A stretch of DNA of 64,000 bases from IMG/VR virus record IMGVR_UViG_3300005253_000523, positions 5,091 through 69,090 of that record; one strand, given 5' to 3'. The stretch's first letter is position 1. The number at the start of each line of letters is the position of its first letter. The position numbers were made by a program, and so were the translations under genes. The notes beneath the pieces are model-generated. The model did not search any database. It was given only the letters and a program-made list of their open reading frames with translations, and was not told the DNA's origin. This document shows positions 2,652 to 55,061 of this stretch, piece by piece. The DNA comes from a virus.

Positions 2652-5015
2652 TCAATCCTCACGCAATTTCACGCGCCGCGCGAAACCACCCATGGAGAAG
2701 CCACGGAACTCTCCGCTCTTGATCTTCTTCCAGATCGACTTGTCGAGCACGTGATACATCACCAACCACGATCCCTTCTTAACTTTCTGTCCACCGATGG
2801 TCAAATTTATGGGTGCGATGTAGCTCTCGAAGATCTCGACGACGCTGTTCACGTTCTTCCGATGCATCAGCCCACGGTTCTGGAACCTGGCCAGCCAACC
2901 ATGCGCTGCCCTCTCGATGGTCACAGGCTTGACGGTATCCTCGTGTGCGTCGACCTCGTCCGGTTCGAGCACAATGCCAAGGACGATGTGCTTGTCCTCC
3001 TCGGCCTTGTCGATCGGAAGCATTCTGATCGTGTGACCATCAACGTCCTCGCGCTTCTCGGTCAGGATCACATCGGCCGGATCGATGCTGCCCTTCTCGA
3101 TTGCTGCCAACCTGGCGAGTTGCGTGGCTGGAGGCGCCGGTCCATTGCGTTGCTGCTCAGGCTTCCCCTGATCGGCCCAGAACTCACCGGGCATGATGCT
3201 GGTGAGTGACTTGCCGTCGAGCTTCAAGCCGTGTGAATGGATCCCGTCGAATGCGGACGACATCACCTGCAGCTCGTGATCGTGACCACCGCCACCTTCG
3301 GTGGTCGTGAATTCCTCTTCGTTGATCAGAACCTTGTGGACGTGCAGACCACTATCTGGAATCGTCTCGTTCGCAGTCGGCCGCGACATCGTGTGTTCGT
3401 GCTCGCCGTCTTCCTCGGTCACGACGCGCGTGCCATCAGCCAGAACGAATAAGTGAATGTGACGACCGTCGTTCTGGGTCTTCTTCGCTTCACGGATCAG
3501 GTTGTGAACGTGGACACCAGCCTCGGGCACCTGGTTCGGGAACCCCTTCAAGATTTTTTCCATGCTGCTGATCTTGATCAGCCTGCGCTCCTTGCTTGGC
3601 ACGAGCGCGAGATCGAACAGCGGCATGTGATCACGGGTCGGTCTTGCCGATGCCTCGTGGAAGTGAACACGGCCACGGTGTTCCTCTGGTACCGATTCCT
3701 GCACGAACGATTCGATGAGTTCTCGCGTCGCCGGATCGACGGGACCGTTGATGAGAATGCCGGCCGCGTCGACGACGATTGCGTTCGATCGCAAGACCAT
3801 CGAATGTCCGAGGCTCTTGAGTAGCTCCTCCATCTTCGCGACGCGCTTGATGTTTTCACAGCGGCCAGTGCGTGAGTTGTAGCGTTTCCCGGGCGGACAC
3901 TTCGGTTGGATCTGCGCTGGCAACTTGCGACCACCAGGATCCAGCGACGGCGACGTGATCGTGTGCGACGCCTTGTTCTCCTTCGGTCGTCCGATGACTG
4001 CCTTCACGCCAGGCGCCAAGGTGATCGTCCGGAAAGATCCAGTCTGAAAATCCCCTGGATTCCGTTGCCGGAACCGGAAGCTGTTCGGCTTCTCGTCGAC
4101 ACCCTTGCCGTCGAATGTCGTTTTGAAATCGTTGTCCTTCAGCCACTGCCGCGCCTGCGCCAGCGAGAACTTCTCCTTGTCGAAAATGATCGTCTGGACT
4201 TCGGTGCTCGTGGGCTCCTGCTTGGCGACTCGCTTCGTCGCAAAGTTGCTGATCACGAAGGTCTTGTATGCCTTGTAGTTCCCACGACCATCGGGAACGG
4301 AATGTGAGATCGCCTGGGTCTTGAAGTTTGATGGACCGGCGACGTCGTACGTGACGATGAACTTACTCTTCACGGTCTTGAGGAAGTTCCAGAACCCGTC
4401 GTGGTCGAACTTCTTCTCGCCGACGTTCTGATCGGTCTTCACGTACGGTGGGTCCAGGAAGAACATCGTCGCCGGCCCGTCGAACTGCTTCATGACCTTG
4501 CGATAATCAGACGAAAATACCTTGACGCCCTTGAGCCGCTCCTTGGCCTTCTCCAACCGATCCGGAACGGTGACGGTGGTACCGATCGCCGTGCGATCGA
4601 TTCCGCCCTTCGGATTGCGCATGAAACCCATCCGTCGTGTCATCACTAACTTGTAGAAGCGCGTGATCTTTGTAGTCGGCGTGGACTTCTTCAACTGATT
4701 GAAGAGTTGCTCGGTCGCCTTCCAGCTCATCCGTTTCAGCGCAGCGAATTCGGCCGGCGTCATGTCACGGATGAACTTGAACGCCTCGGCGATGTCGGTG
4801 TCGAGATCGTTCAAGACCTCCGTCTCGACCTTGGTCTTGGCCCAGAACACAGCGGCACCACCAGCGAACGCTTCGACGTACGACTTGTGTTCCGGGAACA
4901 GCGGGATCAGACGACCAGCCAGTCGCGACTTTCCTGCCGGCGATCCGAAGACCTGGGCACCGACGCGCTTCATCAGCTCGATGGCGTCAGGCGGAAGATC
5001 GTGCGGAGCGTTCAT
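2652..5015 (-). CDS. Polyprotein: Dam/D12-class N6-adenine methyltransferase + unknown domain + His-rich repeats + XkdF-like prohead serine protease
   Basis: GSPAGKSRLA, YVEAFAGGAAVF, LNDLD, FLDPPY (Dam); GxHxH x6; IVLGIVLEPDEVDAH...GLMH...IFESYIAP...KKGSW...IWKKIKSGEFRGFSMGG (XkdF). Start 5015 overlaps the MuF stop (ATGA). Confidence 0.85.
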   Translation of the reverse strand: MNAPHDLPPDAIELMKRVGAQVFGSPAGKSRLAGRLIPLFPEHKSYVEAFAGGAAVFWAKTKVETEVLNDLDTDIAEAFKFIRDMTPAEFAALKRMSWKATEQLFNQLKKSTPTTKITRFYKLVMTRRMGFMRNPKGGIDRTAIGTTVTVPDRLEKAKERLKGVKVFSSDYRKVMKQFDGPATMFFLDPPYVKTDQNVGEKKFDHDGFWNFLKTVKSKFIVTYDVAGPSNFKTQAISHSVPDGRGNYKAYKTFVISNFATKRVAKQEPTSTEVQTIIFDKEKFSLAQARQWLKDNDFKTTFDGKGVDEKPNSFRFRQRNPGDFQTGSFRTITLAPGVKAVIGRPKENKASHTITSPSLDPGGRKLPAQIQPKCPPGKRYNSRTGRCENIKRVAKMEELLKSLGHSMVLRSNAIVVDAAGILINGPVDPATRELIESFVQESVPEEHRGRVHFHEASARPTRDHMPLFDLALVPSKERRLIKISSMEKILKGFPNQVPEAGVHVHNLIREAKKTQNDGRHIHLFVLADGTRVVTEEDGEHEHTMSRPTANETIPDSGLHVHKVLINEEEFTTTEGGGGHDHELQVMSSAFDGIHSHGLKLDGKSLTSIMPGEFWADQGKPEQQRNGPAPPATQLARLAAIEKGSIDPADVILTEKREDVDGHTIRMLPIDKAEEDKHIVLGIVLEPDEVDAHEDTVKPVTIERAAHGWLARFQNRGLMHRKNVNSVVEIFESYIAPINLTIGGQKVKKGSWLVMYHVLDKSIWKKIKSGEFRGFSMGGFARRVKLRED

Positions 5016-7165
5016 GGTCCGAAAGATAGTACCACCGGCTCGGTACGGCACAGCGGATGGAACGGTGGCAGGACTGCCCCGGCCTCGATCAGACGATCGG
5101 TAGCGTCTCCACTTCCCTTATCAGCACCGTCCAGTGCTTCCTCAATCGCAGGGCCAGAGATCCACGGTTGGATCTGTCGAATTTGTTCAGGATTCTTCGC
5201 GTCGAGGAAACGATCGATGTGCTTGCCAGCAGTCTCGACCGTGAATGTCTGACCAACCATTTGCTGGCAGTTGTGTACTACGACATCAGCAACGATGTAC
5301 GTAGGATCATCTCCCTCAATCTCCAGGTTATAGCAAGGCAGGGCCAGCTTGATCGGTTCAAGACGTAGGGGAATCCAACCAATCAGGCAGTCTGTTTCAA
5401 CTTGCGACGCGTCCGTACACCAGCGAGCGCCATGATCAGGGTACGAGTAATGGCTTTGATCGGATCCCTTTTTAGATCGGCCTCTCGGATCCTCACAGCG
5501 ATCCAGCCGTTGCGAATGATGGCTTCCTGTTTTGATTGGCTTATGACCCGCCCTTTTGTGGTGTGCCAATATATTCCATCCACCTCCAAGGCTATCGAAC
5601 CAAGAATCAAGAAATCCACGGATCCATTTCCCGCTTGTACTTCCGCCTCGTATCGCAGACCGAGATATTTCAGGGTCTCCTCGACGGCCAACTCCGGATA
5701 GGTCGCCGCCGTACTTCGGCAGTAGCACGCCTTCGAACAGTAACGCTTGTTCAGCCCTTTGAATTCCCCGCCGCAATGCTGGCACAGTCGTGCTTGAGAA
5801 TATGTCGCACATTTTCGCGAACAGTGTTCTCTTCGTTTTTGCAATAAAACCTCGACGGGCTTCAACCTGAATCTCTTGCTGCACCGCTTGCACCGAGTCC
5901 AGAGCGCTTCCGGTGGCAAACCTTTCCTTCCGGCCTTTCTGCGACATGCCAATGAACAGTGTCTCCAACTGCCTCTGAGGACTTCCGCTCTGCGCCTCTC
6001 GATGACCTTTCCGCAGTGTTCGCAGGCCGTCGTTAACCAGTAAATCTTTTTTTTGTGGCGATATTGGCACTCCCGACCGCAATACTTCTTCCTGTAGTAT
6101 CTGGACGGATGCGTTCGTATCGCTGCCCCGCAACCTACGCACTCTAACGAAATCGGCATCTGTTATCTCCCGAGCCGCCACCCAACCCCTAGCAGTCAGG
6201 ATTTCGTGCTCTGGAGTGATCATAAATCGATGACCGAACGAATTACAGACAAACCAGTCCTCGTTCACCCGTCGTTTTGAAACAGCCTGCACACGCCGCT
6301 TGAATCCGTGCCCTGTCAGGATTTCTGTACCAGGCGTCACGTCTTCGATCGGCAGCTTGCCTCCACTACCCAGGGTCACAAGAGACCCTGGCGCAAAACA
6401 TATCTGTCCAGTACGATCGTCATTGGGATTGGTCAGGCGATAGGTTATGACTCCGCCCTTCTGGAAGCCTTCGATCTTCGAGAAGGTCCGTCCCTGCTGG
6501 GCGGCCACGCTGGAGAGCTGCCGGAAGTAGAGTTCGGGATTGCCGGCGTACTGCGCGGGAATCGTCGGCGCGAATGAAGTGACACCACCAGGCACCAGAC
6601 CGAACTCACGACCGAGCACCGGACCCAGCTCTGCCGACGCCGCCCGGAAGCTCAGTCCCTGGTTGAGGATCACGTCCTCGGTCACGCCAGCGATACGCCG
6701 GCTGAGTTGCTCGCTGTAGAAGTCGCCGACCCAGAACACGTGATGGCGTCGGATCGCCTTGACGGTGCGCGTACTGCGCAATGAGAAGCTGAGCTGAACG
6801 CGCGCTTCACGCTGGGTCAGCTTCAACGTCCGAGAGTAGATCCGCTTCACCAGACCCTCGGTGATCACCTTCTGTGGATTGGTCATCGGCGATGCCAATG
6901 GCGCCGCCAGACGTTTCAAGAACGATGACATCGCCTTGCGAGAACTGTTCCCCGCCTTGCGATACGCGACCAGGCTGCCGGCGAGCGAACCACGTGCGGC
7001 ACGCTTCCAGGATCGGTTGGTGAGTTCGGTGAGCTGCTTCTCCGTCTTGATCGTCATGCGACGGATGTTCGACTCCGCCTTCAATATCGCAGCCAGTGTG
7101 CTCTCAACTTCTTCCGACAACTCCATGAGCGTCGGTGTCGTGAGAGCGTCTAGATCAATCCTCAT
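5012..7165 (-). CDS. MuF-like minor head morphogenesis protein interrupted by an intein
   Basis: DDRTGQI|C and LPPFHPLCRT MuF motifs; located between portal and protease. Confidence 0.85.
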   Translation of the reverse strand: MRIDLDALTTPTLMELSEEVESTLAAILKAESNIRRMTIKTEKQLTELTNRSWKRAARGSLAGSLVAYRKAGNSSRKAMSSFLKRLAAPLASPMTNPQKVITEGLVKRIYSRTLKLTQREARVQLSFSLRSTRTVKAIRRHHVFWVGDFYSEQLSRRIAGVTEDVILNQGLSFRAASAELGPVLGREFGLVPGGVTSFAPTIPAQYAGNPELYFRQLSSVAAQQGRTFSKIEGFQKGGVITYRLTNPNDDRTGQICFAPGSLVTLGSGGKLPIEDVTPGTEILTGHGFKRRVQAVSKRRVNEDWFVCNSFGHRFMITPEHEILTARGWVAAREITDADFVRVRRLRGSDTNASVQILQEEVLRSGVPISPQKKDLLVNDGLRTLRKGHREAQSGSPQRQLETLFIGMSQKGRKERFATGSALDSVQAVQQEIQVEARRGFIAKTKRTLFAKMCDIFSSTTVPALRRGIQRAEQALLFEGVLLPKYGGDLSGVGRRGDPEISRSAIRGGSTSGKWIRGFLDSWFDSLGGGWNILAHHKRAGHKPIKTGSHHSQRLDRCEDPRGRSKKGSDQSHYSYPDHGARWCTDASQVETDCLIGWIPLRLEPIKLALPCYNLEIEGDDPTYIVADVVVHNCQQMVGQTFTVETAGKHIDRFLDAKNPEQIRQIQPWISGPAIEEALDGADKGSGDATDRLIEAGAVLPPFHPLCRTEPVVLSFGP
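5270..6400 (-). mobile_element. Intein in MuF (377 aa) lacking an in-frame endonuclease
   Basis: Block A CFAPGSLVTL, block B ITPEHEILTARGW, blocks F/G CYNLEIE...VVHN|C. Confidence 0.9.
5383..6159 (-). CDS. Zn-finger + DUF559/Vsr-like endonuclease nested in the +1 frame of the MuF intein
   Basis: Four CxxC...C(S/G)xxC ribbons; PE...VDFL...ALEVDGIYWH...GWIAVRIRE; SD GGGAG 7 nt before ATG. Confidence 0.85.
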   Translation of the reverse strand: MPISLECVGCGAAIRTHPSRYYRKKYCGRECQYRHKKKIYWLTTACEHCGKVIERRRAEVLRGSWRHCSLACRRKAGRKGLPPEALWTRCKRCSKRFRLKPVEVLLQKRREHCSRKCATYSQARLCQHCGGEFKGLNKRYCSKACYCRSTAATYPELAVEETLKYLGLRYEAEVQAGNGSVDFLILGSIALEVDGIYWHTTKGRVISQSKQEAIIRNGWIAVRIREADLKRDPIKAITRTLIMALAGVRTRRKLKQTA

Positions 7166-10004
7166 TGTCGTCGAAGCGTTTCAGAATCTGCTGGTCGACT
7201 GACTTACGGAAGTTCTGCAGTTTCTCGATCATATCCTCAGCGATTTCTTCGGCGATCGTTTCACCATTCGGAACATCACCGGAAAGAATCTTGTCGACTT
7301 CGGCCTGGCTCGTTTTTGCGCCGACCTGAGCGAGCGCGAACTGCAACGAGTACGGCACATCGAGCTCGATGCCCTTGGGCTCCGGTCCGAAGTCTTCGCC
7401 GAACACATCCTTGCCGATGTTGTCTGCTCTGCGTGGTGTCATACCACCAGACTTCTCAAGGATGTTTGCCATCTTCACTAGGATCTCGTCGTCGGTGATA
7501 TTCGGGTGCATCGACTTGAACGCATGGAATCGAGCCTTCCATCGGGTCATCACGAATCGATTGAACAACTCGTCGTCGTCAGCACGGTCAGGACCGAAGA
7601 CCTGCTCGTCGCCGACGCGCTTCGAGACGGCTGCCGTCGAACGGTTGTAGTCTTCGGAGTTACCCGAGATCAGGACGCGGCCATTTCGACGAGTGACCAG
7701 CATGCCATTGGGCACCGTGAAGCAGGACACCTTACCCTTGTACGGGACACGTGAAATCTGTTTCTTTTGCAACAGATGACGCTGATCACGATGACCGTTG
7801 CTTACCCAGATTGTCGACCATCCCTCTTCACTACGATCTACCTGACGAGTGGTGAGCGCAATACCAAGACGAACACAAATCTCGTGGAGCTGATCGTTCA
7901 ATAACTTCGAAGTCGTACCGTATGTGAATGATCCTTCGCTACCCATCGCGGGACGACTACCATCGCCATCGATCATTGCATCGAGTAATACCTGAAGCTG
8001 ATCGGCCTCAACGCCGAGAACCCAACGAGGCAGACATTTATTCTTGGCGCCATGACCGCAACTATCACGGAGCCATCGCCACATCCCAACGTGACAGGCG
8101 CTGATATTCAACTGACCGGGATGCGATTCGCAGACCCCTACTTTGAAACTCATCTCCTTAAGAGTCCGGATCATGTCATCCGCAACTTCACCAACATTTT
8201 GAGACAGGTTGAATGGACCAGGCGTTTCGGTCGTACTCCCCTCGCTGACAAAATAACCAAGGAACTTTAAGAATGTCGTGCCGTCGACGTTCCAACCTTC
8301 GCGATCCTCATAGCGTTCTAGATCGCGGGTAGGATTTTTGCTCGGCTTATCAGGATGCCAGGTATTATTCGGATCGTTTCGCGGTACCTCGAAGGCTTCG
8401 TAATAGCGACCGCGCCAAGATGCCGAGACAGGGATTTCCAAACAACCACCACCATTGCCACCACGAACATTCTGAAGATCACCGGCTTCACAAAATCTCC
8501 ACGGGCGCTCAGGCCAAGCACTAGCAGCCGTTGGTCGCGTCCACATTCGATGGTTCGGCGTGACCAGTGCATCAATGCCACGGTTCTTCAAGTGAATCAG
8601 TTCGCCGTCATAGTCGTACTGATGGCGGGCAGTCGGGACTTGATACTCAACTTCTCCGGTCGCAGCGTTGTAGGTTGCAAGAGCCTGCTGCGAACTAATC
8701 TCGTCGTACTTCTGCCAACCACGGTCGGTCAAATACTCCGTATCGGATGAGCTACAACGCCCCACGAAGATCGGCGGCAGGCGGAAGCTCTGGCGGATCT
8801 TGTCGCGGTTGTTCTTGTCGTACTCCAACCACAGCTCGTCCCTCTGCTGGTGTGGCTTGGTCGGCTCGATCCGAATCTTGAACGCAGTCGGATTCGGATT
8901 GCCCTCATCCATCGGCTCACCTTCGAGGATGATCATCGAGCTGTAATTTGCCTCCTGTTGCAGCGACTCGATGAACTCAGTTACGCGCTTAACGCTACCA
9001 TCGGTGAGCGTTCCGTTCTCGACGATGAGAAATAACGACGGGACTGCGTTGTTAGACAGCGTGTTGAAGTTCAGCTCCTGCGCCTTGCGACTGCCGAAGA
9101 ACTCGAAGATCGCTCCAATCCATTCGGGAACGCCGTAAGAAGAGTGCGGCGAATAGATTTTGTGATGGAGAACGCTGGTGGCGCGCATCGGAAACTCGAT
9201 TGGTTTTTCATTCGTGCCGTATTCACCGGTCGTGAAGTCGAGATCCCGTGGATCGCCCGCCTCCTTGAAGAATCGGATCCTCTCCGCGCGGATCTGAACG
9301 TAACGCCGAAAGCGCGAGAGCATCTTGACATTGCCGATCGTCAGATCCTCATTGATCACTGGCACGTCGATGACAACTGGATCACGCTCCAGAGAAGTCA
9401 TGCGAACCGTATGCGCATGGATGTGACCGAGTCCAACGAGTTCGCGGTTGGGTGCATCGATCAGTTCCATGTAGCCATTGCCCGTCTGGACCTTGTCGTG
9501 CTTGATGCGCGCACGGATCTCTGTGAGAGACAGCTTCGGATGGACCGCCGATAGTCGAGTACTCAGCCGGGCCTTCTCCGTGTTGATCTCGGTCTCGAAT
9601 TTCGATCGGATCTTCTCGTTGCGCAGGAGCATCGACTCCTTCAATCGGTGGCCGAACTTCACAGTGTTCGTGACCATCGTGCGAATGTTCTGGCCCAGCT
9701 CGTTGCTGTTATCCATGGCCAGCGCGAGGAAACTCAAGTCGTAGGGTGGATCGATGACGGTGGCGCGGCCTTCGATCTTCGTGTGAAAGAGATCGTCCTC
9801 CTCACTCGATGCGTGGCCAAGACTGCGTCCGCCTTCCGGAACCTGCGGCAGCCCATCCTGCTTCTCGATCTTCCGCAGTCCCTCACGAGGACTGATGATC
9901 GTCGCCCTGAGAACCTGATGGTGGCGCTTGCCAGACTTGTCGACGACTTCGACTGGCAGTGTGCGGACGGTTTCGGCGGTAGCGTCTTTGGCCATGTCAC
10001 CCAC
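7155..10004 (-). CDS. Portal protein (PBSX/XkdE type) with intein
   Basis: TGNGYMELI, YSPHSSYGVPEWIGA, NNAVPSLFLIV, IRQSFRLPPIFVG|SEDYNRSTA. Confidence 0.9.
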   Translation of the reverse strand: MGDMAKDATAETVRTLPVEVVDKSGKRHHQVLRATIISPREGLRKIEKQDGLPQVPEGGRSLGHASSEEDDLFHTKIEGRATVIDPPYDLSFLALAMDNSNELGQNIRTMVTNTVKFGHRLKESMLLRNEKIRSKFETEINTEKARLSTRLSAVHPKLSLTEIRARIKHDKVQTGNGYMELIDAPNRELVGLGHIHAHTVRMTSLERDPVVIDVPVINEDLTIGNVKMLSRFRRYVQIRAERIRFFKEAGDPRDLDFTTGEYGTNEKPIEFPMRATSVLHHKIYSPHSSYGVPEWIGAIFEFFGSRKAQELNFNTLSNNAVPSLFLIVENGTLTDGSVKRVTEFIESLQQEANYSSMIILEGEPMDEGNPNPTAFKIRIEPTKPHQQRDELWLEYDKNNRDKIRQSFRLPPIFVGRCSSSDTEYLTDRGWQKYDEISSQQALATYNAATGEVEYQVPTARHQYDYDGELIHLKNRGIDALVTPNHRMWTRPTAASAWPERPWRFCEAGDLQNVRGGNGGGCLEIPVSASWRGRYYEAFEVPRNDPNNTWHPDKPSKNPTRDLERYEDREGWNVDGTTFLKFLGYFVSEGSTTETPGPFNLSQNVGEVADDMIRTLKEMSFKVGVCESHPGQLNISACHVGMWRWLRDSCGHGAKNKCLPRWVLGVEADQLQVLLDAMIDGDGSRPAMGSEGSFTYGTTSKLLNDQLHEICVRLGIALTTRQVDRSEEGWSTIWVSNGHRDQRHLLQKKQISRVPYKGKVSCFTVPNGMLVTRRNGRVLISGNSEDYNRSTAAVSKRVGDEQVFGPDRADDDELFNRFVMTRWKARFHAFKSMHPNITDDEILVKMANILEKSGGMTPRRADNIGKDVFGEDFGPEPKGIELDVPYSLQFALAQVGAKTSQAEVDKILSGDVPNGETIAEEIAEDMIEKLQNFRKSVDQQILKRFDDNED
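7659..8756 (-). mobile_element. Intein in portal (366 aa) with in-frame LAGLIDADG homing endonuclease
   Basis: CSSSDTEYLTDRGW, VTPNHRMW, FLGYFVSEGS and LDAMIDGDGS motifs, VSCFTVPNG...ISGN|S. Confidence 0.9.
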
Positions 10005-50853: not shown

Positions 50854-51756
50854 TCAAGGGACGAGCCCGGCCTCGGTCGGGCTTTTCTCTTTTTGGAAAA
50901 GCATCTGGAATGCTAACGCCGCTTGCTGCGGGACGACGGCGTTGCCGAGACATCCAATTCGGTCCACCCGCTTTGGAACCCCATGAGCCACTCGACCCAC
51001 GTCGGGTTCAATGTTCCACCAGCCACTATCGGTAGAGGTTCGCTGCCGATCGAGTTCGCCCCCCTTTTGGCTCCCTTGAACGTCCTTTGGTCGCGCCGAA
51101 CAGGAGTGGGCCACATTTTCACGGCTGCGCCGAGACTCGGGTTCCCCTTTTGATACATCGTCGGGCCCCTGTCGCCATCCGATCTTGTCGGCGTCGGCCA
51201 CATGCCGCGCGCCACTCCGTCCAGCGTTGGGCGAAGCGTCCCACTCTTGTCGCGCTGCCATCCTCCCGCCTCGTTCGCTCGCGGCGTGGGCAAGAATAAA
51301 GACTCGACGCCGGAGATGGGGCGCTCCAACGTCGGCCGCTCGAAGCACCGACCACTCTGCATCGTACCCGCAAGCGGCCAAGTCTCCGAGTACACGGTCG
51401 AGTCCCCGGTTAACGAGAGCTGCGACGTTTTCAATGAACACGTATCGGGGTCGAAGTACGCGAATGATGCGGGCGAACTCTGACCAGAGTCCGGACCTCT
51501 CTCCATCGATGCCGGCGCGCTTCCCTGCGTTGCTGATGTCCTGGCAGGGGAACCCTCCACAGATGATGTCTGGTCGTTCCGTTTGCTCATCCACTTCCCT
51601 CACATCATTGTATCGCTTGACCTCTGGCCAGTGCTTGGCCAATACAGCGCGGGCATATGGATCCGACTCCGCCTGCCAGATCACTGGACCCAGACCGCAC
51701 ATCTCAAGGCCAAGTTCAAGGCCACCGATGCCAGAGAAAAGAGATCCGATTTTCAT
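50854..51756 (-). CDS. dcm: C5-cytosine DNA methyltransferase, alpha subunit
   Basis: SLFSGIGG, GGFPCQD, ENV, GAPHLRRRVF, LGNAVVPQ; motif IX is missing in this frame. Confidence 0.9.
   Translation of the reverse strand: MKIGSLFSGIGGLELGLEMCGLGPVIWQAESDPYARAVLAKHWPEVKRYNDVREVDEQTERPDIICGGFPCQDISNAGKRAGIDGERSGLWSEFARIIRVLRPRYVFIENVAALVNRGLDRVLGDLAACGYDAEWSVLRAADVGAPHLRRRVFILAHAASERGGRMAARQEWDASPNAGRSGARHVADADKIGWRQGPDDVSKGEPESRRSRENVAHSCSARPKDVQGSQKGGELDRQRTSTDSGWWNIEPDVGRVAHGVPKRVDRIGCLGNAVVPQQAALAFQMLFQKEKSPTEAGLVP
50913..51590 (-). CDS. C5-MTase beta subunit (TRD + motif IX) nested in the +1 frame
   Basis: (L/W)PTP repeats and LNPTWVEWLMGF.SGWT; GAGG SD. Confidence 0.75.
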   Translation of the reverse strand: MSKRNDQTSSVEGSPARTSATQGSAPASMERGPDSGQSSPASFAYFDPDTCSLKTSQLSLTGDSTVYSETWPLAGTMQSGRCFERPTLERPISGVESLFLPTPRANEAGGWQRDKSGTLRPTLDGVARGMWPTPTRSDGDRGPTMYQKGNPSLGAAVKMWPTPVRRDQRTFKGAKRGANSIGSEPLPIVAGGTLNPTWVEWLMGFQSGWTELDVSATPSSRSKRR

Positions 51757-54647
51757 TCGCCCACTTTCGATACTAGCGACATCACGAAGTCAACGATGCT
51801 CCGCTTGTCGTGCAGGGACCTGTAGATCCCTTCGTCGATCGTCTTGCTGGCCACCATCATCACGTTAGTTACCTTGCGGGTCTGACCCGGTCTATGGACG
51901 CGTGCCTTCGCCTGATCCAATTCGCCGAGGCTGTAGCCGATCGAGTAGAACACTGCATACCGCGCACGCGTGAGATCGACGCCGAGCCCACCGGACTGGA
52001 TCTGCACTGCCAGTATCGGCGCGCCGCCCTCCTGCCACTCCGCAAGCTGATTGCGGCGTCCCGATAGTTCCAGGCAGTTTGTGTCGACTGCCTCGGCTGC
52101 AGCGTGAACGTTGTCGAGGTCGTGGTGGAATCTGCAGAAGACCACCATTGCCTCGCCGGCACTGGCGCCGGCCTCCTCCATCACCTCTTGCAAGACCTTG
52201 GCCCGGCTATCACCCACTTCGTGGATTTTGCCGTCGTCGTCCTTGGCATAGCCCGACGTCGCCTGTTGCAGCTTGAGCACCTTCACCAATGCATTGGCGG
52301 CCGTGACTTGTTCGCCCGACTCGACCCAGGCAATCAGATCGCGGAAGAGTTCGTTGTGTAGCTTGCGCTCCGCCTTGCCCAGCGGCACGTCGCGAGTCAC
52401 GTCGATCACGTCTGGAAGATCGAGAACGTCGCGGCTCACGTGCAGGGTAATGGTATCCATGCGTGCCTTGAGATCGTCGAGGTTCTGGTACTGCGACGTC
52501 TCTGGATAGTGCATGGTCTTTTTCGCCTGGCTGATCAGATTGGCATAGACGTTGATCTTCCAGCCGACGTCCTTGTTAGCGCGATCGCCTCTGTCCCCTG
52601 CGAGTTCGATCGTGTCGACGATCTCCTGATCGGTCATCTGAAACTTAATGCAGCGGATCACGAGCGACAGCTCACGGGAGAAAATGTTCTTGAACTTCTT
52701 CTCGCCAGTGAAGATCGCTTTGAAGTCGGCGTCGTTGGTCAGTGCGACCTGTAAGCGATCGGGCTGAGATGGATCCTTCTGCACCTTGAACGTTGCTGGC
52801 GTGATGTACTTGAGCTTGAATTTGGTATAGCTGTCGCCATAGATGCCTGGGTCCAGGGCACGGAACTCGGCGAAGACGTCAGCGGGACCGTGAGGCATGA
52901 GCGTGCCCGACAACCCGGTCGCATGCTTGGTGCTGTGTCGGAGCGTGCTACAGAACAGCGACGCGCGCCCGGTGGGACTCTTGATGCGGTGGCAATTATG
53001 AACAAGTAGCCCGTTGGCAAAGTAGTTGCCAGTACCCGTTTCTAGGTTGAAGACCTTACGGCTTTTAACACTTCCTCCATCACATGATCCGTTTTGTCGA
53101 TCACAATCTGATTTGGAAATCTCAGAACGGTCCATCCTCGCCGCCGAAGAAACCGATCTTTCTTCCTGTCCTTGGCTTTTACGGTTGACGTCGTATGGGA
53201 CCACCCGTCGACCTCGATCGCGATTTTGAGAGTCGGTTCTGCAATATCGATCTTGTAGTGTGTCGGGAAACCTGGTCGTCGCGGCTTTATCGAGATGATG
53301 TGTTCGATCGGCCAACCGAGACGTGCTGCCAAGAGTTTCTGTGGGATTGTTGGCTCCCTGCCGTTGCCACCGTTCAACTGCCGATATCCTTGCTCTCGTA
53401 ACGTTGCTTGTCCTTTGGCTCTGATCTTTTTCGCAGTTGCAGGATTCTTGAAGGGATTGCGATTTGAAAGAAGATAGGTAGCGAGTTTCTTTCTGAACTC
53501 TGGTTGTCGCTGTTGATTTTTCATTCTCTCTCGTGCCAGCTCTCGTCTCCGTTCCGTGTCCAGCGTTGCCACAAAATCCGGACGAGACATGCGCCATTGG
53601 GCTGAGCAACTCCTTCCGCAAAATCGTGTCGGACGGCTCTTGACTTTCTGTTTGTACTTCCGCCCGCACCATTCGCATCGCGACTTCGGATCCGCCATTG
53701 AAAATGCGTTTTAACTCAATGTGGGTCACAAAGTCAAAATTCGATACATCGCCTGCAGGTACATAACCATGTGTTGTCCACACAGGATGATTCGGTGTCA
53801 GCATCGTATCGTTGACACGGACTAAACTGTTCGAGGTTTCCCTGCGGAAAGTGAATCGAATCGGTGTCTCGGTTACCTGACATTCGTTGTCCATTCCGTA
53901 GACCAGATCTCCTTCGGCCAGTTCGCTAATCGGTCGATCGCCTTCTGGTGTCGCGATCATCGTATCGCCAGGTACACATTCATCCATGACCACCAGATCC
54001 CACGGCATCACCCGAGCCCAGTCGCCGAACGGATCCCGCCAGGCACCCTCGTAGTTGATCACGAACATCAAGTTGCCGCCTCCGGACGGCGCCGCATTGG
54101 CTGCGGCGAATATCTTGTCGGCGAAGTCAGTTCGCTTCTGGATGGTGCCGTCGCGCAGGGCCACGACACGTATGTCCACGGCCGCGTACTTCTCCACCTC
54201 CAGCGGCCATACCGATATGACGGACGCAGGGCAGAGCACCAACGTGCGGCGGAGATCGTAGTTCGTGATGGCGTCGATCACGGATCGGGTCTTGCCCGTG
54301 CCCATGCCGCCGTCGATGCAGGACGCACCGAGCTGACCGATCATGTTGGTCGCCTCGATCTGGTGTTTCCAGGGTGGCGGATCCTTGGTGATGAGCTTGG
54401 TCGATGCGAGAGGCACGTCCATGGTCGCGTATGCGAGCAGATCACCTCCGTCGATAGTGAACTTGTGACGGGTCAGGCAGGCGCGCAAGGCACGCGCCAC
54501 TGCCGGCGTGCGATCATAAGACCATGCCCGCTGCGCTTTGTTCCAGCGCACGGTCGGGATCGCCTTCAGGTCTTTGTTAAGCGTCTGGTCGAACGGCGTG
54601 TGAACAAAGAAGTGGTCATCCTGCGCTTCGATTCGTGCGGTTGGCAT
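51753..54647 (-). CDS. SNF2-like helicase with intein
   Basis: GMGTGKT, DE|CH, LSGT, QSGGLGVDLT, QAKARVHRPGQ. Confidence 0.92.
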   Translation of the reverse strand: MPTARIEAQDDHFFVHTPFDQTLNKDLKAIPTVRWNKAQRAWSYDRTPAVARALRACLTRHKFTIDGGDLLAYATMDVPLASTKLITKDPPPWKHQIEATNMIGQLGASCIDGGMGTGKTRSVIDAITNYDLRRTLVLCPASVISVWPLEVEKYAAVDIRVVALRDGTIQKRTDFADKIFAAANAAPSGGGNLMFVINYEGAWRDPFGDWARVMPWDLVVMDECVPGDTMIATPEGDRPISELAEGDLVYGMDNECQVTETPIRFTFRRETSNSLVRVNDTMLTPNHPVWTTHGYVPAGDVSNFDFVTHIELKRIFNGGSEVAMRMVRAEVQTESQEPSDTILRKELLSPMAHVSSGFCGNAGHGTETRAGTRENEKSTATTRVQKETRYLSSFKSQSLQESCNCEKDQSQRTSNVTRARISAVERWQRQGANNPTETLGSTSRLADRTHHLDKAATTRFPDTLQDRYCRTDSQNRDRGRRVVPYDVNRKSQGQEERSVSSAARMDRSEISKSDCDRQNGSCDGGSVKSRKVFNLETGTGNYFANGLLVHNCHRIKSPTGRASLFCSTLRHSTKHATGLSGTLMPHGPADVFAEFRALDPGIYGDSYTKFKLKYITPATFKVQKDPSQPDRLQVALTNDADFKAIFTGEKKFKNIFSRELSLVIRCIKFQMTDQEIVDTIELAGDRGDRANKDVGWKINVYANLISQAKKTMHYPETSQYQNLDDLKARMDTITLHVSRDVLDLPDVIDVTRDVPLGKAERKLHNELFRDLIAWVESGEQVTAANALVKVLKLQQATSGYAKDDDGKIHEVGDSRAKVLQEVMEEAGASAGEAMVVFCRFHHDLDNVHAAAEAVDTNCLELSGRRNQLAEWQEGGAPILAVQIQSGGLGVDLTRARYAVFYSIGYSLGELDQAKARVHRPGQTRKVTNVMMVASKTIDEGIYRSLHDKRSIVDFVMSLVSKVGE
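52995..53978 (-). mobile_element. Intein in SNF2 Walker B (328 aa) lacking an in-frame endonuclease
   Basis: CVPGDTMIAT, LTPNHPVWT, VFNLETGTGNYFANGLLVHN|C. Confidence 0.9.
53042..53698 (-). CDS. Zn-finger + DUF559/Vsr-like endonuclease nested in the +1 frame of the SNF2 intein
   Basis: CEWCG...FCGRSC; YKIDIA...IAIEVDGWSH...DRKKDRFLRRRGWTVLRF.N. Confidence 0.85.
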   Translation of the reverse strand: MADPKSRCEWCGRKYKQKVKSRPTRFCGRSCSAQWRMSRPDFVATLDTERRRELARERMKNQQRQPEFRKKLATYLLSNRNPFKNPATAKKIRAKGQATLREQGYRQLNGGNGREPTIPQKLLAARLGWPIEHIISIKPRRPGFPTHYKIDIAEPTLKIAIEVDGWSHTTSTVKAKDRKKDRFLRRRGWTVLRFPNQIVIDKTDHVMEEVLKAVRSST

Positions 54648-54837
54648 GTCTCTTTTGCTGGCTGGTGGGTTTCAATTCGAGTTCGATCAGACCGTCTAGC
54701 CAGACCCTCACGATGTGAGCCACATATGGACTGCGCTTCTGTCCATTGACGTGAGCCGCACGGTCAAGACGTCGTACCAGAGTAGCCGGCAGTGAGAGGT
54801 TGACCTGTCTGGTGGGCATCGGGATCGGCACCTTCAT
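54616..54837 (-). CDS. Ribbon-helix-helix DNA-binding protein
   Basis: RQVNLSLPATLVRRLDRAA...RSPYVAHIV. Confidence 0.7.
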   Translation of the reverse strand: MKVPIPMPTRQVNLSLPATLVRRLDRAAHVNGQKRSPYVAHIVRVWLDGLIELELKPTSQQKRHANRTNRSAG

Positions 54838-54863
54838 TCATCCGAACCGATCCGTCAACGGAA

Positions 54864-54878
54864 TATAGGCCGCCTATA
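54864..54878. promoter_or_regulatory. Palindromic operator TATAGGC-C-GCCTATA upstream of the RHH/replication operon
   Basis: Perfect 7-1-7 inverted repeat. Confidence 0.5.
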
Positions 54879-55061
54879 AAGTATGGCTGTGGTCAAGCTG
54901 TGGATGGAACGCCGTGGCCGCCCGGAATGACGGCGGTCTTCGCGGTCTGCCGCCTGTGGCGTTTTGTGCGCCCAGCGTGCCCCTGTCCCGGCCGTTCTCA
55001 GGATCCCGGCCCGGTAGTGTCCGGGACAACGGCCGGCCCACACAACCGCGCTGTGGGCCAC

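What the first reader, a model, noticed from the sequence alone, without database searches (positions are those of the whole stretch)
52995..53978. Second, independent dual-coding intein in the SNF2 helicase Walker B
Seen: the intein splits DE|CH, and its middle ~219 codons are an uninterpretable but stop-free stretch. The +1 frame (53042-53698) encodes a Zn finger + DUF559 endonuclease (YKIDIA..IAIEVDGWSH..DRKKDRFL...GWTVLRF). It has the same architecture and frame offset as the MuF intein but a dissimilar sequence, which argues for a recurrent design rather than an assembly error. A possible internal promoter, TTGACT(53737-53732)-18-TAAAAC, lies 9 nt before the nested ATG. Inference: the endonuclease could be regulated independently of the host gene.
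Basis: partly seen in the sequence, partly recalled or inferred. Interest (0 to 1): 0.9.

Follow-up and report, generated by a model that had tools for sequence, protein, structure and literature searches.

The report
Intein hiding an overlapping nuclease gene
A self-splicing protein insert in a phage helicase gene carries the gene for its own DNA-cutting enzyme in a second, overlapping reading frame; this layout is common in related viruses but has only recently begun to be described.

Summary
The SNF2-like ORF 51753..54647(-) holds a 328-aa class-1 intein (52995..53978) between DE and CH of the Walker B/DExH box. A 218-aa ORF (53042..53698) in the +1 frame encodes a zinc ribbon plus a DUF559/Vsr-like nuclease.

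It is not an assembly error. Contigs from a second sample are identical, with no indels. The same +1 layout occurs in 83 of 86 related viral or phage loci and in 18 of 18 MAG loci.

The host frame is kept open by selection: 0 of 20000 synonymous-codon shuffles are stop-free. Protein-level constraint follows the nuclease frame in 3078 of 3081 pairs.

A natural intein-less allele, exactly 984 nt shorter, exists in another study's metagenome.

The internal promoter proposal is not supported. Relatives instead carry Shine-Dalgarno motifs before the nested start.

Inteins with out-of-frame endonucleases were reported in 2025-26 preprints. A sense-strand, +1, Vsr-like nuclease at Walker B sites of helicases, clamp loaders and terminases was not found in print. 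I rate it a new variant of a known kind.

The parts
51753..54647 (-). SNF2-family helicase precursor ORF, 964 aa (N-extein, intein, C-extein)
   Evidence: ORF. SNF2-rel_dom 32.2 bits and Helicase_C 30.7 bits, both above their cut-offs; the closest homologues, 49-50% identical in the C-extein, are 622-670 aa and lack the insert.
53979..54647 (-). N-extein, 223 aa, ending ..WDLVVMDE (Walker B / motif II Asp-Glu)
   Evidence: The intein-less homologue P0050 reads ..LIVYDE-IHKIKAP at this point.
52995..53978 (-). Class-1 intein, 328 aa (Cys1 .. His327-Asn328), followed by a +1 Cys
   Evidence: translation. C1, H64, V326 and N328 invariant, and T61 and H327 at least 90% conserved, in 32 inteins. 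TIGR01443 18.4 bits, above its 15.6 cut-off. Hint fold; another metagenome holds an allele lacking exactly 984 nt here.
53649..53978 (-). N-terminal splicing domain (intein residues 1-110, blocks A and B)
   Evidence: pLDDT 92-98 in every ten-residue block except 91-100 (78), all beta strands; 47 PDB matches at E<=1e-3, the listed ones Hint domains or inteins.
53067..53648 (-). Host-frame linker (intein residues about 111-304): stop-free, predicted disordered, not conserved as protein
   Evidence: pLDDT 36-56 and almost no secondary structure; stop avoidance; host-frame identity 0.196 against 0.372 in the nuclease frame.
52995..53066 (-). C-terminal splicing region (about residues 305-328, ..VFNLETGTGNYFANGLLVHN)
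   Evidence: pLDDT 75-98; intein_Cterm; the last two residues are HN in 73 of 79 relatives.
53042..53698 (-). Nested +1-frame ORF, 218 aa plus stop: putative homing endonuclease
   Evidence: 44 full-length homologues of 140-316 aa. AF2 mean pLDDT 91.3; 1108 cluster representatives at E<=1e-10, and the best 150 are all 115-353 aa.
53606..53677 (-). Zinc ribbon of the nuclease (C8-x2-C11 .. F-C27-x3-C31), FCS/MYM-like
   Evidence: all four Cys invariant in 25 sequences; weak profile matches to MYM/FCS zinc fingers, E 0.02-0.1; one homologue (P0008) carries precomputed PF06467; its name is recalled.
53057..53290 (-). DUF559 / Vsr-like nuclease core (residues 137-214; K149, D151, E162, D164, H168, D177)
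   Evidence: DUF559; these residues invariant or at least 90% conserved; 3hrl and I-Bth0305I 3r3p, TM 0.71-0.72; 3hrl 9.6e-11, 3r3p 2.1e-4.
53649..53698 (-). 5' true dual-coding stretch: nuclease codons 1-17 overlap structured strands of the N-splicing domain
   Evidence: Coordinates; strands E97-105 and E108-110; pLDDT 93 for residues 101-110.
53042..53066 (-). 3' true dual-coding stretch: the end of the nuclease (..VRSST, stop) overlaps splicing block ..VFNLE; its TAG stop lies within the host codons cTA Gaa
   Evidence: in relatives the nested stop lies a median of 7 aa before the intein end.
51753..52994 (-). C-extein, 413 aa plus stop, starting CHRIKSPTGR (rest of the SNF2 DExH..K motif, then Helicase_C)
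53708..53737 (-).
   Evidence: sequence; not called; 0 found against 1.6 expected; not conserved in close relatives.

Best explanation
This is a two-gene mobile element inside one host gene. A class-1 intein sits in the Walker B (DE|xH) codons of a phage SNF2 helicase. Its homing endonuclease is not a domain of the intein. It is a separate 218-aa protein (zinc ribbon, helical middle, Vsr-like/DUF559 nuclease) read from its own ATG in the +1 frame.

Shown by sequence and comparison: both frames are open; the host frame is kept stop-free by the arrangement of synonymous codons; amino-acid constraint follows the nuclease frame; the splicing residues are intact; the element is precisely absent from a near-identical allele.

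Inferred:
(1) The helicase is translated through the intein. The roughly 190-residue middle acts as a disordered tether, and the N- and C-terminal Hint halves fold together and splice, giving a 636-aa SNF2 protein with a DECH box.
(2) The nuclease is made by internal translation initiation on the same mRNA.
(3) It cuts intein-less alleles at or near the Walker B coding sequence. Repair from the intein-bearing copy then copies in the whole module plus a few flanking codons, which is homing.
(4) The layout arose when a free-standing endonuclease gene landed in the loop of a mini-intein. Only insertions that left the intein frame open survived. The +1 offset is easy to keep open because every host-frame stop needs a T at a nuclease third codon position, and NNT always has a synonymous NNC.
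For: Real sequence: contigs from a second sample cover 52714-53554, 53573-54101 and 54083-54300 with 0 differences and 0 indels.

Recurrence: 83 of 86 related phage or viral loci (two of them cut by a contig end) and 18 of 18 MAG loci have a long sense ORF spanning the nuclease, with the nuclease at +1. None is at +2.

Stop avoidance: 0 host-frame stops against 8.56 expected, and 0 of 20000 shuffles stop-free. There are 37 NNT codons and 61 codons starting AA/AG/GA, giving 10.4 expected T|AA/AG/GA junctions; 0 are observed.

Selection by frame: identity is 0.372 in the nuclease frame and 0.196 in the host frame, and the nuclease frame is higher in 3078 of 3081 pairs. Nucleotide differences at nuclease codon positions 1/2/3 are 0.50/0.458/0.643.

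Folds: the nuclease model has mean pLDDT 91.3. Its best PDB matches are 3hrl (DUF559) and I-Bth0305I 3r3p, TM 0.71-0.72, and the profile search gives 9.6e-11 and 2.1e-4. In the host-frame intein model, residues 1-110 and 301-328 are confident and the middle has pLDDT 36-56. It has 47 PDB matches at E<=1e-3, and the listed ones are Hint domains or inteins.

Splicing residues in 79 relatives: Cys1 in 79 of 79; terminal HN 73, SN 5, GN 1; +1 residue Cys 70, Ser 9.

Mobility: a contig from another study matches 52928-52973 (0 differences) and 53989-54296 (7 differences in 308). It skips 1015 nt and holds 31 other letters there, a net loss of 984 nt, which is the intein length. The closest extein homologues are intein-less. 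GC is about 0.50 in the intein against 0.57-0.62 in the flanks.

Own start: a Shine-Dalgarno-like motif precedes the nearest ATG in 28 of 74 loci, against 287 of 3779 control ATGs. Examples are AGGAGG 10 nt before the ATG in L088 and AAGGAG 5 nt before it in L009.

Free-standing relatives exist: L007, L078 and L081. No fused form was found: none in the 'longer' search, and the best 150 of the library search are 115-353 aa.
Against: There is no experimental or RNA evidence for splicing, for translation of the nested ORF, or for cleavage.

The window's own nested ATG has no Shine-Dalgarno motif. Most genes of this phage also lack one: by eye about 3-5 of 20 have one.

The Pfam Hint_2 score is just under its cut-off (28.1 against 28.4), and TIGR01445 is under its cut-off (18.7 against 24.5).

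The Foldseek E-values for the nuclease are only 6e-3 to 8e-3; none is <=1e-3.

The intein-less allele rests on one 567-nt contig at depth 5.

No close, non-identical relative of this particular element was found, so selection is shown for the family and not for this copy.

Relatives were found through the nuclease, so the uniform +1 frame may reflect one ancestral event rather than an advantage of that frame. Only the best 80 of 294 viral hits were examined.

The Mantel correlations (nuclease against splicing domain r=0.41, nuclease against extein r=0.46, 0 of 999 permutations each) are confounded by shared ancestry.
Confidence: 0.8

Rival explanations
1. The architecture is real, but in this phage the nested nuclease is a recently inactivated or never-expressed passenger. 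On this view the intein is effectively a mini-intein with a long junk linker, and the open nuclease frame merely reflects recent arrival.
For: There is no Shine-Dalgarno motif before the window's ATG. No RNA holder is listed, so expression is untested. No close variant exists to measure selection on this copy. Decayed relatives exist: L076 has 2 internal stops in the N-terminal part, and P0045 is a deletion-fused form.
Against: Every column that is invariant in 25 homologues is intact in the window's copy, which is the alignment's reference sequence: C8, C11, C27, C31, N81, GGNG110-113, K149, D151, E162, G165, H168, D177, G188, W189. The fold is predicted at pLDDT 91.3. The ORF has a start in the same place as its 69%-identical homologue P0004. 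Most genes of this phage lack a Shine-Dalgarno motif anyway.
Confidence: 0.12
2. Sequencing or assembly artefact: two compensating frameshift errors at the ends of the nested ORF, so that the nuclease is really an in-frame intein domain.
For: This is the a priori worry for a metagenome contig. The D. radiodurans Snf2 intein was once mis-sequenced in this way (recalled; not checked here).
Against: Contigs from a second sample are identical across both ORF ends, with no indels. 101 of 104 independent related loci, including five isolate phage genomes, show the same +1 offset. Stop avoidance over 218 codons cannot result from two indels. The nuclease has its own conserved N-terminus and its own stop.
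Confidence: 0.01
3. The nuclease is not started internally. It is produced by programmed +1 ribosomal frameshifting from the helicase/intein frame, as an N-extein/N-intein/nuclease fusion.
For: It lies on the same strand at a +1 offset, and the window has no Shine-Dalgarno motif.
Against: A start codon lies just upstream of the zinc ribbon in 77 of the 78 loci with a CxxC motif scored. Shine-Dalgarno-like motifs are about five-fold enriched before it. Gene callers predict stand-alone proteins of 115-353 aa. Free-standing copies with the same N-terminus exist. No slippery-site search was made.
Confidence: 0.03
4. The nested nuclease mainly serves the phage: it degrades or excludes co-infecting intein-less competitors, or host DNA. 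Intein spread would then be a side effect.
For: Targeting the Walker B site of essential replication and packaging genes of rival phages would be an effective exclusion weapon. The module sits in SNF2, UvsW-like, XPD-like, clamp-loader and terminase genes.
Against: Nothing distinguishes this from homing with the present data. Precise presence/absence at one site, with altered flanking codons, is the classical homing signature.
Confidence: 0.04

Closest known systems
'Non-canonical' actinobacteriophage inteins with the endonuclease in another reading frame (Gosselin, Arsenault and Gogarten, bioRxiv 10.1101/2025.01.02.630785; I read the abstract, sections 8 and 15, and search passages; supplements not seen)
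   Same: A contiguous intein whose in-frame middle is unrecognisable, while an overlapping ORF encodes the endonuclease. It is proposed to arise by invasion of an intein by a free-standing endonuclease gene. It occurs in phages, including 'minor capsid' (MuF-like) hosts. Vsr-like nucleases are among the types.
   Different: That paper reports Vsr-like and LAGLIDADG nucleases on the antisense strand. Its only sense-strand case is an endonuclease VII-like gene in 'frame 3'. Its host proteins are DNA polymerase, minor capsid, terminase and thymidylate synthase. Here the Vsr-like nuclease is on the sense strand at +1, in an SNF2 helicase Walker B site, in a marine-sediment phage outside PhagesDB, with more than 100 relatives in many host genes and phyla.
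Cyanobacterial dnaX intein with an out-of-frame LAGLIDADG endonuclease (Phillips, DeSimone and Gogarten, bioRxiv 10.64898/2026.09.14.751524; abstract and search passages read)
   Same: A sense-strand overlapping ORF with a Shine-Dalgarno motif. The intein frame is predicted disordered. Selection depends on frame (low omega in the nuclease frame). Intein-plus and intein-minus alleles coexist. The host is an AAA+ clamp-loader ATPase, as in 12 of the loci found here (by the post-junction motif; one confirmed by Pfam).
   Different: The nuclease family differs (LAGLIDADG against Vsr-like/DUF559 with a zinc ribbon). That case is a cellular gene in a single lineage and a single host gene.
Fractured genes: split inteins with a free-standing Vsr-like endonuclease gene between the halves (Dassa et al. 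2009, PMC2677866; search passages read)
   Same: The same nuclease type, in the same position between the N- and C-splicing halves, mainly in phages, in DNA-metabolism genes and terminase. The 3' end of the nuclease gene overlaps the downstream intein part.
   Different: There the host gene is broken into two ORFs and rejoined by trans-splicing. Here the host frame runs uninterrupted through the nuclease gene in 101 of 104 loci. That paper states that Vsr-like nucleases were not then known in inteins.
I-Bth0305I, prototype of the 'EDxHD' homing endonucleases (Taylor et al. 2011, PMC3239194; abstract and search passages read; PDB 3r3p)
   Same: The C-terminal nuclease core is alike: Foldseek TM 0.72, rmsd 2.8 A over 108 columns, and profile E 2.1e-4. 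The design is bipartite, with an N-terminal DNA-binding region and a C-terminal Vsr-like nuclease. It is linked to self-splicing elements in phages.
   Different: I-Bth0305I lies in a group I intron and has NUMOD/helix-turn-helix motifs at its N-terminus. The protein here has an FCS-like zinc ribbon and sits inside an intein coding frame. Its closest solved relative by sequence is the DUF559 protein 3hrl (9.6e-11).
ShiLan insertion in a phage methylase with a hidden out-of-frame HNH endonuclease (PMC11855218; only the search listing and the start of the abstract were seen)
   Same: An in-frame, stop-free insertion in a phage gene that hides an out-of-frame endonuclease.
   Different: It carries an HNH nuclease. 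Whether that insertion is an intein was unclear in the part of the text I saw.

Membership tests
Intein (class 1, Hint fold) | Cys/Ser nucleophile as the first residue | tested here: met
   Cys1 directly follows ..MDE. The first residue is Cys in 79 of 79 related inteins.
Intein (class 1, Hint fold) | Block B Thr-x-x-His | tested here: met
   The window has T61-P-N-H64. H64 is invariant and T61 at least 90% conserved in 32 inteins.
Intein (class 1, Hint fold) | C-terminal His-Asn followed by Cys/Ser/Thr | tested here: met
   H327-N328 followed by Cys. In relatives: HN 73, SN 5, GN 1; +1 residue Cys 70, Ser 9, of 79.
Intein (class 1, Hint fold) | Hint fold formed by the N- and C-terminal parts | tested here: met
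   In the AF2 model, residues 1-110 and 301-328 are confident. Foldseek gives 47 PDB matches at E<=1e-3. The listed ones are Hint domains or inteins, for example 2lwy, 1at0, 2in0 and 7cfv.
Intein (class 1, Hint fold) | Curated profile thresholds | tested here: inconclusive
   TIGR01443 intein_Cterm scores 18.4, above its 15.6 cut-off. Hint_2 scores 28.1, below 28.4. TIGR01445 scores 18.7, below 24.5. Intein_splicing scores 13, below 35.8.
Intein (class 1, Hint fold) | Precise in-frame insertion that is absent from homologous alleles | tested here: met
   P0050 (633 aa) reads DE-IHKIK with no insert. The X4 contig lacks exactly 984 nt.
Intein (class 1, Hint fold) | Protein splicing activity | not testable with these tools
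   This needs expression of the precursor.
Vsr-like / DUF559 ('EDxHD'-type) homing endonuclease | Match to the DUF559/Vsr-like nuclease profile | tested here: met
   PF04480 scores 49.2 bits against a 20.6 cut-off. Profile against PDB: 3hrl 9.6e-11, 3r3p 2.1e-4.
Vsr-like / DUF559 ('EDxHD'-type) homing endonuclease | Vsr-like restriction-endonuclease fold | tested here: met
   Mean pLDDT is 91.3. 3hrl and 3r3p give TM 0.71-0.72 normalised by the target, probability 1.00, but E is only 6e-3 to 8e-3. 1vsr gives E 0.2.
Vsr-like / DUF559 ('EDxHD'-type) homing endonuclease | Conserved catalytic Glu/Asp/His/Asp set | tested here: inconclusive
   D151, E162, H168 and D177 are invariant and D164 is at least 90% conserved in 25 sequences. 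I did not map them one-to-one onto the published EDxHD residues. In the HMMER alignment, I-Bth0305I has N where this family has D164.
Vsr-like / DUF559 ('EDxHD'-type) homing endonuclease | Site-specific cleavage of the element-free allele | not testable with these tools
   The empty-site sequence is now known, so the assay can be designed.
Inteins with an endonuclease in a separate overlapping frame (2025-26 preprints) | The endonuclease ORF overlaps the intein's middle in another frame, and the in-frame middle is unstructured | tested here: met
Inteins with an endonuclease in a separate overlapping frame (2025-26 preprints) | Purifying selection follows the endonuclease frame | tested here: met
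   Shown at family level: 3078 of 3081 pairs, with the third codon position of the nuclease frame the most variable. This could not be tested for this copy alone.
Inteins with an endonuclease in a separate overlapping frame (2025-26 preprints) | Same nuclease type, strand, frame and host gene as a reported case | tested here: not met
   The reported cases are antisense Vsr-like, antisense LAGLIDADG, sense endonuclease VII 'frame 3' and sense LAGLIDADG '+2ORF'. None is in an SNF2 or other helicase host. Supplements were not seen.
Fractured gene / split intein with free-standing Vsr-like endonuclease (Dassa 2009) | Host gene split into two ORFs around the endonuclease gene | tested here: not met
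   There is one uninterrupted 964-aa ORF. The same holds in 101 of 104 relatives.
SNF2-family helicase (the host gene) | SNF2-related N-terminal domain plus Helicase_C, with DExH..K motif II | tested here: met
   Both Pfam hits are above their cut-offs. Motif II is restored as DE+CHRIK on removing the intein; this is inferred from the alignment to P0050.

The most novel reading that the evidence does not exclude
This may be one member of a large, old and so far unrecognised clade of obligately overprinted intein/endonuclease modules. The library search found 1108 nuclease cluster representatives at E<=1e-10, and genomic context was checked only for 104 loci. In this clade a zinc-ribbon Vsr-like nuclease is never fused to its intein. 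It is always read at +1, the one offset in which every host-frame stop can be removed by a silent T-to-C change. The module has specialised on the Walker B (DE|xH) codons of P-loop NTPases and has hopped between SNF2, UvsW-like, XPD-like and other SF2 helicases, clamp loaders and terminases, in phages of at least a dozen bacterial and archaeal phyla. Current intein catalogues would be scoring these as mini-inteins or decaying inteins with long linkers.
Probability: 0.4. Interest if true: 0.75.

Novelty: new variant of a known kind. Interest (0 to 1): 0.62.

Why it matters
First, it shows that two overlapping genes with different selective regimes can be maintained for a long time. One frame is constrained as a protein. 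The other is constrained only to stay open, and to encode splicing blocks at the two ends. The family offers more than 100 natural replicates for studying overprinting.

Second, annotation pipelines and intein surveys miss the nuclease. All 40 phage-database matches lie under a single annotated helicase, P-loop, coil-containing or hypothetical-protein gene. These inteins would therefore be scored as endonuclease-less and immobile.

Third, it links the 'fractured gene' split inteins, free-standing endonuclease genes and contiguous inteins through one nuclease family. That bears on how inteins acquire endonucleases and how split inteins arise.

Fourth, it points to a nuclease family that appears to recognise Walker B coding sequence. 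That explains how an intein can jump between unrelated ATPase genes. The family could be a source of new sequence-tolerant nucleases and of compact inteins that tolerate about 200-residue inserts.

Fifth, a natural empty allele is now in hand, so homing can be tested directly.

Tried and rejected
- DNA search of 52700-54300 against phage records in 'distant' mode: no match.
- Single-protein scan of viral contigs: one locus, L007, which proved to be a free-standing copy.
- Literature searches for 'alternative reading frame' (0 papers), DUF559+intein (1 unrelated paper) and 'different reading frame' (2 unrelated papers).
- Internal promoter: the sigma-70 scan of 51700-54900 found 0 sites against 1.6 expected in shuffles, and there is no conserved upstream motif in six close relatives. 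I rejected it as unsupported; it is not disproved.
- RNA evidence: no RNA holder is listed for this stretch, so transcription start and expression could not be examined.
- Earlier notes of this scan: none for this genome.
I repeated it with the 8-sequence alignment A3.
- Lead from NCBIfam: the host-frame intein (residues 143-328) weakly matches NF038136, the 'intein-containing Rv2578c radical SAM protein' (E 3.7e-6; also L103 and L102). I asked whether that cellular intein hides the same nuclease. 23 of 401 Actinomycetota genomes carry it above the cut-off. That tally includes 7 genomes flagged unpublished: G002, G019, G049, G089, G149, G175 and G392; nothing else was taken from them. In the 7 published loci tested, 0 had a tblastn match to the nuclease family. 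L117 shows an ordinary in-frame LAGLIDADG domain by eye. Lead rejected.
- Fused in-frame forms of the nuclease: none among 1042 longer candidates (the tool itself calls this weak evidence).
- PHROGs: only weak hits to the nuclease core.
- MuF-nested nuclease relatives: 17 mycobacteriophage records and 10 viral loci, with 0 of the 10 viral loci nested. That second case has no known overprinted relatives.
- The Shine-Dalgarno count (58 of 78) chose the best candidate start and used loose motifs. I replaced it with the fixed-rule test.

Full report
WHAT IS THERE. The window is part of a 69,090-base IMG/VR virus record. On the minus strand, ORF 51753..54647 encodes a 964-aa protein with SNF2-related and Helicase_C domains above the Pfam cut-offs. 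Between ..WDLVVMDE and CHRIKSPTGR.. lies a 328-aa insert (52995..53978) that begins with Cys and ends with His-Asn. The closest extein homologues in the 5.8-billion-protein collection are 49-50% identical and 622-670 aa long, so they lack the insert. P0050 reads ..LIVYDE-IHKIKAP.. straight across the site. The insert therefore sits inside motif II (Walker B, DExH..K) of the helicase.

THE INTEIN. Cys1, Thr61-x-x-His64, His327-Asn328 and the +1 Cys are all present. In an alignment of 32 related inserts, C1, H64, V326 and N328 are invariant. An AlphaFold2 model built on that alignment is confident for residues 1-110 (pLDDT 92-98, except 78 for residues 91-100) and for 301-328 (75-98). Residues 111-300 score 36-56 and have almost no secondary structure. 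The model has 47 PDB matches at E<=1e-3. The listed ones are Hint domains, mini-inteins or bacterial intein-like domains, over about 118-160 aligned columns, and none shows an endonuclease domain match. Curated profile scores are mixed. TIGR01443 is above its cut-off; Hint_2 and TIGR01445 are just below theirs. Taking the catalytic residues, the fold and the precise absence from homologues together, I file it as a class-1 intein. Splicing itself is inferred.

THE NESTED GENE. ORF 53042..53698 lies on the same strand and is offset by +1 (54647-53698 = 949 = 3x316+1). It encodes 218 aa and spans intein codons 94-313. It scores DUF559 at E 5.6e-13, 49.2 bits against a 20.6 cut-off.

The large protein collection holds 44 homologues at 32-69% identity. 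Most are full-length; they range from 140 to 316 aa, and nearly all carry PF04480. In an alignment of 25, the invariant columns are four Cys (C8, C11, C27, C31: a C-x2-C...F-C-x3-C ribbon), N81, a GGNG motif (110-113), K149, D151, E162, G165, H168, D177, G188 and W189.

The AF2 model has mean pLDDT 91.3. Its best structural matches are the DUF559 protein 3hrl and the catalytic domain of the homing endonuclease I-Bth0305I (3r3p), at TM 0.71-0.72 normalised by the target and rmsd 2.8-4.4 A. E. coli Vsr ranks further down. All E-values exceed 1e-3. A profile search of PDB sequences gives 3hrl 9.6e-11 and 3r3p 2.1e-4.

An exhaustive phmmer run over 1.84 billion cluster representatives finds 3193 at E<=1e-3, 1108 at E<=1e-10 and 70 at E<=1e-30. 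The best 150 are all 115-353 aa. A search restricted to longer proteins found nothing (weak evidence). So this nuclease is seen as a small stand-alone protein and never as a domain of a long one.

NOT AN ARTEFACT. Logan contigs of four public marine-sediment runs were laid on 52700-54300.
- X1 may be the source of this DNA and is identical.
- X2 and X3 come from another sample of the same study. They cover 52714-53554, 53573-54101, 54083-54300, 52746-53101, 53130-53614 and 53766-53925 with no differences and no indels. These pieces include both ends of the nested ORF.

STOP AVOIDANCE AND FRAME-SPECIFIC SELECTION. I kept the nuclease's amino-acid sequence and codon usage and permuted synonymous codons. 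The host frame then acquires 8.56 stops on average, and 0 of 20000 permutations are stop-free, as the real sequence is. The third sense frame has 9 stops against 8.05 expected, which is neutral. The three antisense frames have 6, 6 and 7 stops.

The mechanism is visible in the codons. There are 37 codons ending in T and 61 starting AA/AG/GA. That predicts 10.4 T|AA/AG/GA junctions, and none occurs. In the +1 arrangement every host-frame stop needs such a T, and every NNT codon has a synonymous NNC under the standard code. The host frame can therefore be kept open at no cost to the nuclease. This last point is my inference.

Across 79 distinct related elements (3081 pairs), amino-acid identity over the same nucleotides is 0.372 in the nuclease frame and 0.196 in the host frame. 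The nuclease frame is higher in 3078 of 3081 pairs. Nucleotide differences at nuclease codon positions 1, 2 and 3 are 0.50, 0.458 and 0.643. Protein-level constraint thus follows the nuclease frame. The host frame is constrained only to lack stops, except at the two ends. There, nuclease codons 1-17 overlap strands of the N-terminal splicing domain, and the last roughly 10 codons overlap the ..VFNLE.. block. The nuclease's TAG stop lies inside the host codons cTA Gaa.

RECURRENCE. A tblastn search of the nuclease against 50,697 phage records gave 40 records: Vibrio 37, Corynebacterium 2 and Pseudomonas 1. Every match lies under an annotated helicase, P-loop, 'coil containing' or hypothetical gene. 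In the five records I fetched (Corynebacterium phage phi673; Vibrio phages 159E43-1b, CP-T1 and 1.088.O; Pseudomonas phage MR14), the match is +1 relative to the annotated CDS.

A profile-guided scan of IMG/VR found 294 relatives, and the best 80 were kept. Of 86 external loci in all (L001-L005 and L007-L087), 83 have a long sense ORF of 489-2542 aa spanning the nuclease, with the nuclease at +1. None has it at +2. Two of the 83 are cut by a contig end. The other three (L007, L078, L081) are free-standing copies between unrelated genes. Stops inside the tblastn matches were C-terminal overruns in 15 loci; only L076 has internal stops.

A scan of one genome per prokaryotic species gave 18 loci in MAG contigs labelled Acidobacteriota, Bryobacterales, Solibacteraceae, Patescibacteria, Spirochaetaceae, Chloroflexi, WWE3, Kapaibacterium, Clostridia, Anaerolineae, Riflebacteria, Akkermansia, Woesearchaeota, Dependentiae and Microbacteriaceae. 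All 18 show the +1 layout.

WHERE THE MODULE SITS. Both junctions could be placed in 79 loci. The N-extein ends ..DE in 66 of them..DExH in 8, and otherwise in 5. In the DE class the C-extein starts CH in 54 of 66. Inteins are 270-440 aa, median 320. Pfam on 10 host ORFs gave:
- SNF2: 4
- DNA polymerase III delta'/AAA clamp loader: 1
- SF2 helicase with Helicase_C only: 1
- DEAD plus Helicase_C_2 (XPD-like): 1
- ResIII plus UvsW_N: 1
- T4-type terminase: 1
- Terminase_3: 1
. The nuclease ORF starts a median of 87 aa after Cys1 and stops a median of 7 aa before the intein end. That is the position where in-frame endonuclease domains sit in canonical inteins. Nuclease distances correlate with splicing-domain distances (Spearman 0.41) and with extein distances (0.46), with 0 of 999 permutations reaching either value. 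This is compatible with the module travelling as a unit, but shared ancestry confounds it.

MOBILITY. A 567-nt contig from a different study (run X4, depth 5) matches 52928-52973 with 0 differences and 53989-54296 with 7 differences in 308. It skips 1015 nt and carries 31 other letters in their place. The net loss is 984 nt, exactly the intein.

Read by hand in gene orientation, the junction of this allele is V-F-D-E-V-H-K-I-K-S-P-T. The window has V-M-D-E, then the intein, then C-H-R-I-K-S-P-T. So a natural intein-less allele exists whose flanks are about 98% identical. Its 31 nt around the site are much more diverged, by synonymous and non-synonymous changes, and include Val in place of the +1 Cys.

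Intein-bearing relatives share C-H-R/K at +1 to +3, while the two empty alleles (X4 and P0050) have V/I-H-K. I read the patch as a co-conversion tract brought in with the intein; this is an inference. GC falls to about 0.50 across the intein from 0.57-0.62 in the flanks, which agrees with foreign origin.

EXPRESSION. No similar motif is conserved in six close relatives. Using one fixed rule (the nearest ATG upstream of the zinc ribbon), a GGAG/GAGG/AGGA motif 4-12 nt upstream is present in 28 of 74 loci. The figure for all other ATG triplets in the same host ORFs is 287 of 3779. The relatives include textbook cases such as AGGAGG 10 nt before the ATG (L088) and AAGGAG 5 nt before it (L009).

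The window's own ATG is preceded by an A/U-rich stretch without such a motif. Most genes of this phage also lack one: by eye about 3-5 of 20 have one. Internal translation initiation is therefore the best-supported route. A separate transcript cannot be excluded, because no RNA holder is listed.

THE SECOND CASE IN THE WINDOW. ORF 5012..7165(-) carries Hint/Vint hits. I did not verify that it is MuF-like. A nested +1 ORF, 5383..6159, encodes 258 aa with several zinc ribbons and a Vsr/MTES_1575 core. It shows the same stop avoidance. Its nuclease resembles the SNF2 one only in the core: hhalign probability 81.6%, 23% identity over 70 columns. The two inteins resemble each other only around block B. 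Its relatives are free-standing genes in 17 mycobacteriophage records and 10 viral loci, with 0 of the 10 viral loci nested. This supports two independent captures in one genome.

WHAT IS KNOWN.
- Dassa et al. 2009 (PMC2677866) described Vsr-like endonuclease genes standing free between split-intein halves, and stated that Vsr-like nucleases were not known in inteins.
- Taylor et al. 2011 (PMC3239194) characterised I-Bth0305I and named the EDxHD family.
- Gosselin et al. (bioRxiv 2025) reported contiguous actinophage inteins with the endonuclease in another frame. Their types are antisense LAGLIDADG, antisense Vsr-like, and sense endonuclease VII-like in 'frame 3'. Their hosts are DNA polymerase, minor capsid, terminase and thymidylate synthase.
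- Phillips et al. (bioRxiv 2026) described a sense-strand out-of-frame LAGLIDADG gene in the cyanobacterial dnaX intein, with frame-dependent dN/dS.
- A 2025 paper reports a hidden out-of-frame HNH in a methylase insertion (listing only).

Eight full-text searches found no report of a sense-strand +1 Vsr-like endonuclease inside a contiguous intein, nor of any such intein in an SNF2 or SF2 helicase Walker B site. Supplements of the preprints were not available to me and could hold such cases.

VERDICT. The finding is real and the 'recurrent design' reading is right. The kind of thing is already in the recent literature, so it is not categorically new. This nuclease type, strand, frame and target-site combination, its breadth (101 of 104 loci; at least seven host protein types; phages of many phyla) and the quantified stop avoidance appear to be new. 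The promoter idea should be dropped in favour of internal translation initiation. Interest 0.62; new variant of a known kind.

Noticed in passing
The host frame shows 0 stops against 9.33 expected, and 0 of 20000 shuffles are stop-free. Its nuclease relatives are all free-standing: 17 mycobacteriophage records, and 0 of 10 viral loci nested.
   Followed up: partly
window 7155..10004 (-): A 949-aa ORF has a Phage_portal hit (30.9 bits, below the 39.1 cut-off) and an in-frame LAGLIDADG_3 domain at residues 673-741. This is probably a third, canonical intein in the same phage.
   Followed up: no
window 50854..51756 (-) and 50913..51590 (-): The C-5 cytosine methylase ORF directly downstream of the helicase matches Pfam only over residues 1-160 of its 300. 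The rest is overlapped by a 225-aa ORF on the same strand in another frame, which has no Pfam hit. This could be another overlapping-frame insertion or a frameshift. By eye the 225-aa ORF carries repeated WPTP motifs and an ..LNPTWVEWLMGF.. stretch, which I recall from phage methylases.
   Followed up: partly
window 2652..5051 (-): A 799-aa ORF combines an N-terminal D12-class N6-adenine methyltransferase domain with a C-terminal XkdF-like serine protease domain. This is an unusual fusion next to the structural genes.
   Followed up: no
window 52999..53055, runs X1 and X2: Short contigs (700 and 258 nt, depth 2-3.5) match only these 57 nt, with 7 differences, and then run on unlike the window. 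They probably come from the C-terminal splicing block and nuclease end of a different intein of the same family in the same community.
   Followed up: no
protein P0045 (316 aa): In one metagenome protein, a helicase N-extein plus about 45 residues of intein (..LVIDE-CFVAGTPIL..) runs in frame into the C-terminal two-thirds of the nuclease. This looks like a deletion that fused the two frames, a decayed or transitional form.
   Followed up: partly
loci L007, L078, L081: Three members of the same nuclease family stand free between unrelated phage genes, with no intein. L078 and L081 have two or three tandem zinc ribbons. They are candidates for the free-standing ancestors of the overprinted form.
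   Followed up: partly
window 52995..53978 host frame against NCBIfam NF038136: The host-frame intein weakly matches the 'intein-containing Rv2578c radical SAM' model (E 3.7e-6). That family's intein turned out to carry an ordinary in-frame LAGLIDADG domain, and 0 of 7 loci tested have the Vsr-like nuclease. Why the linker region scores at all is unexplained; composition may be the reason.
   Followed up: yes
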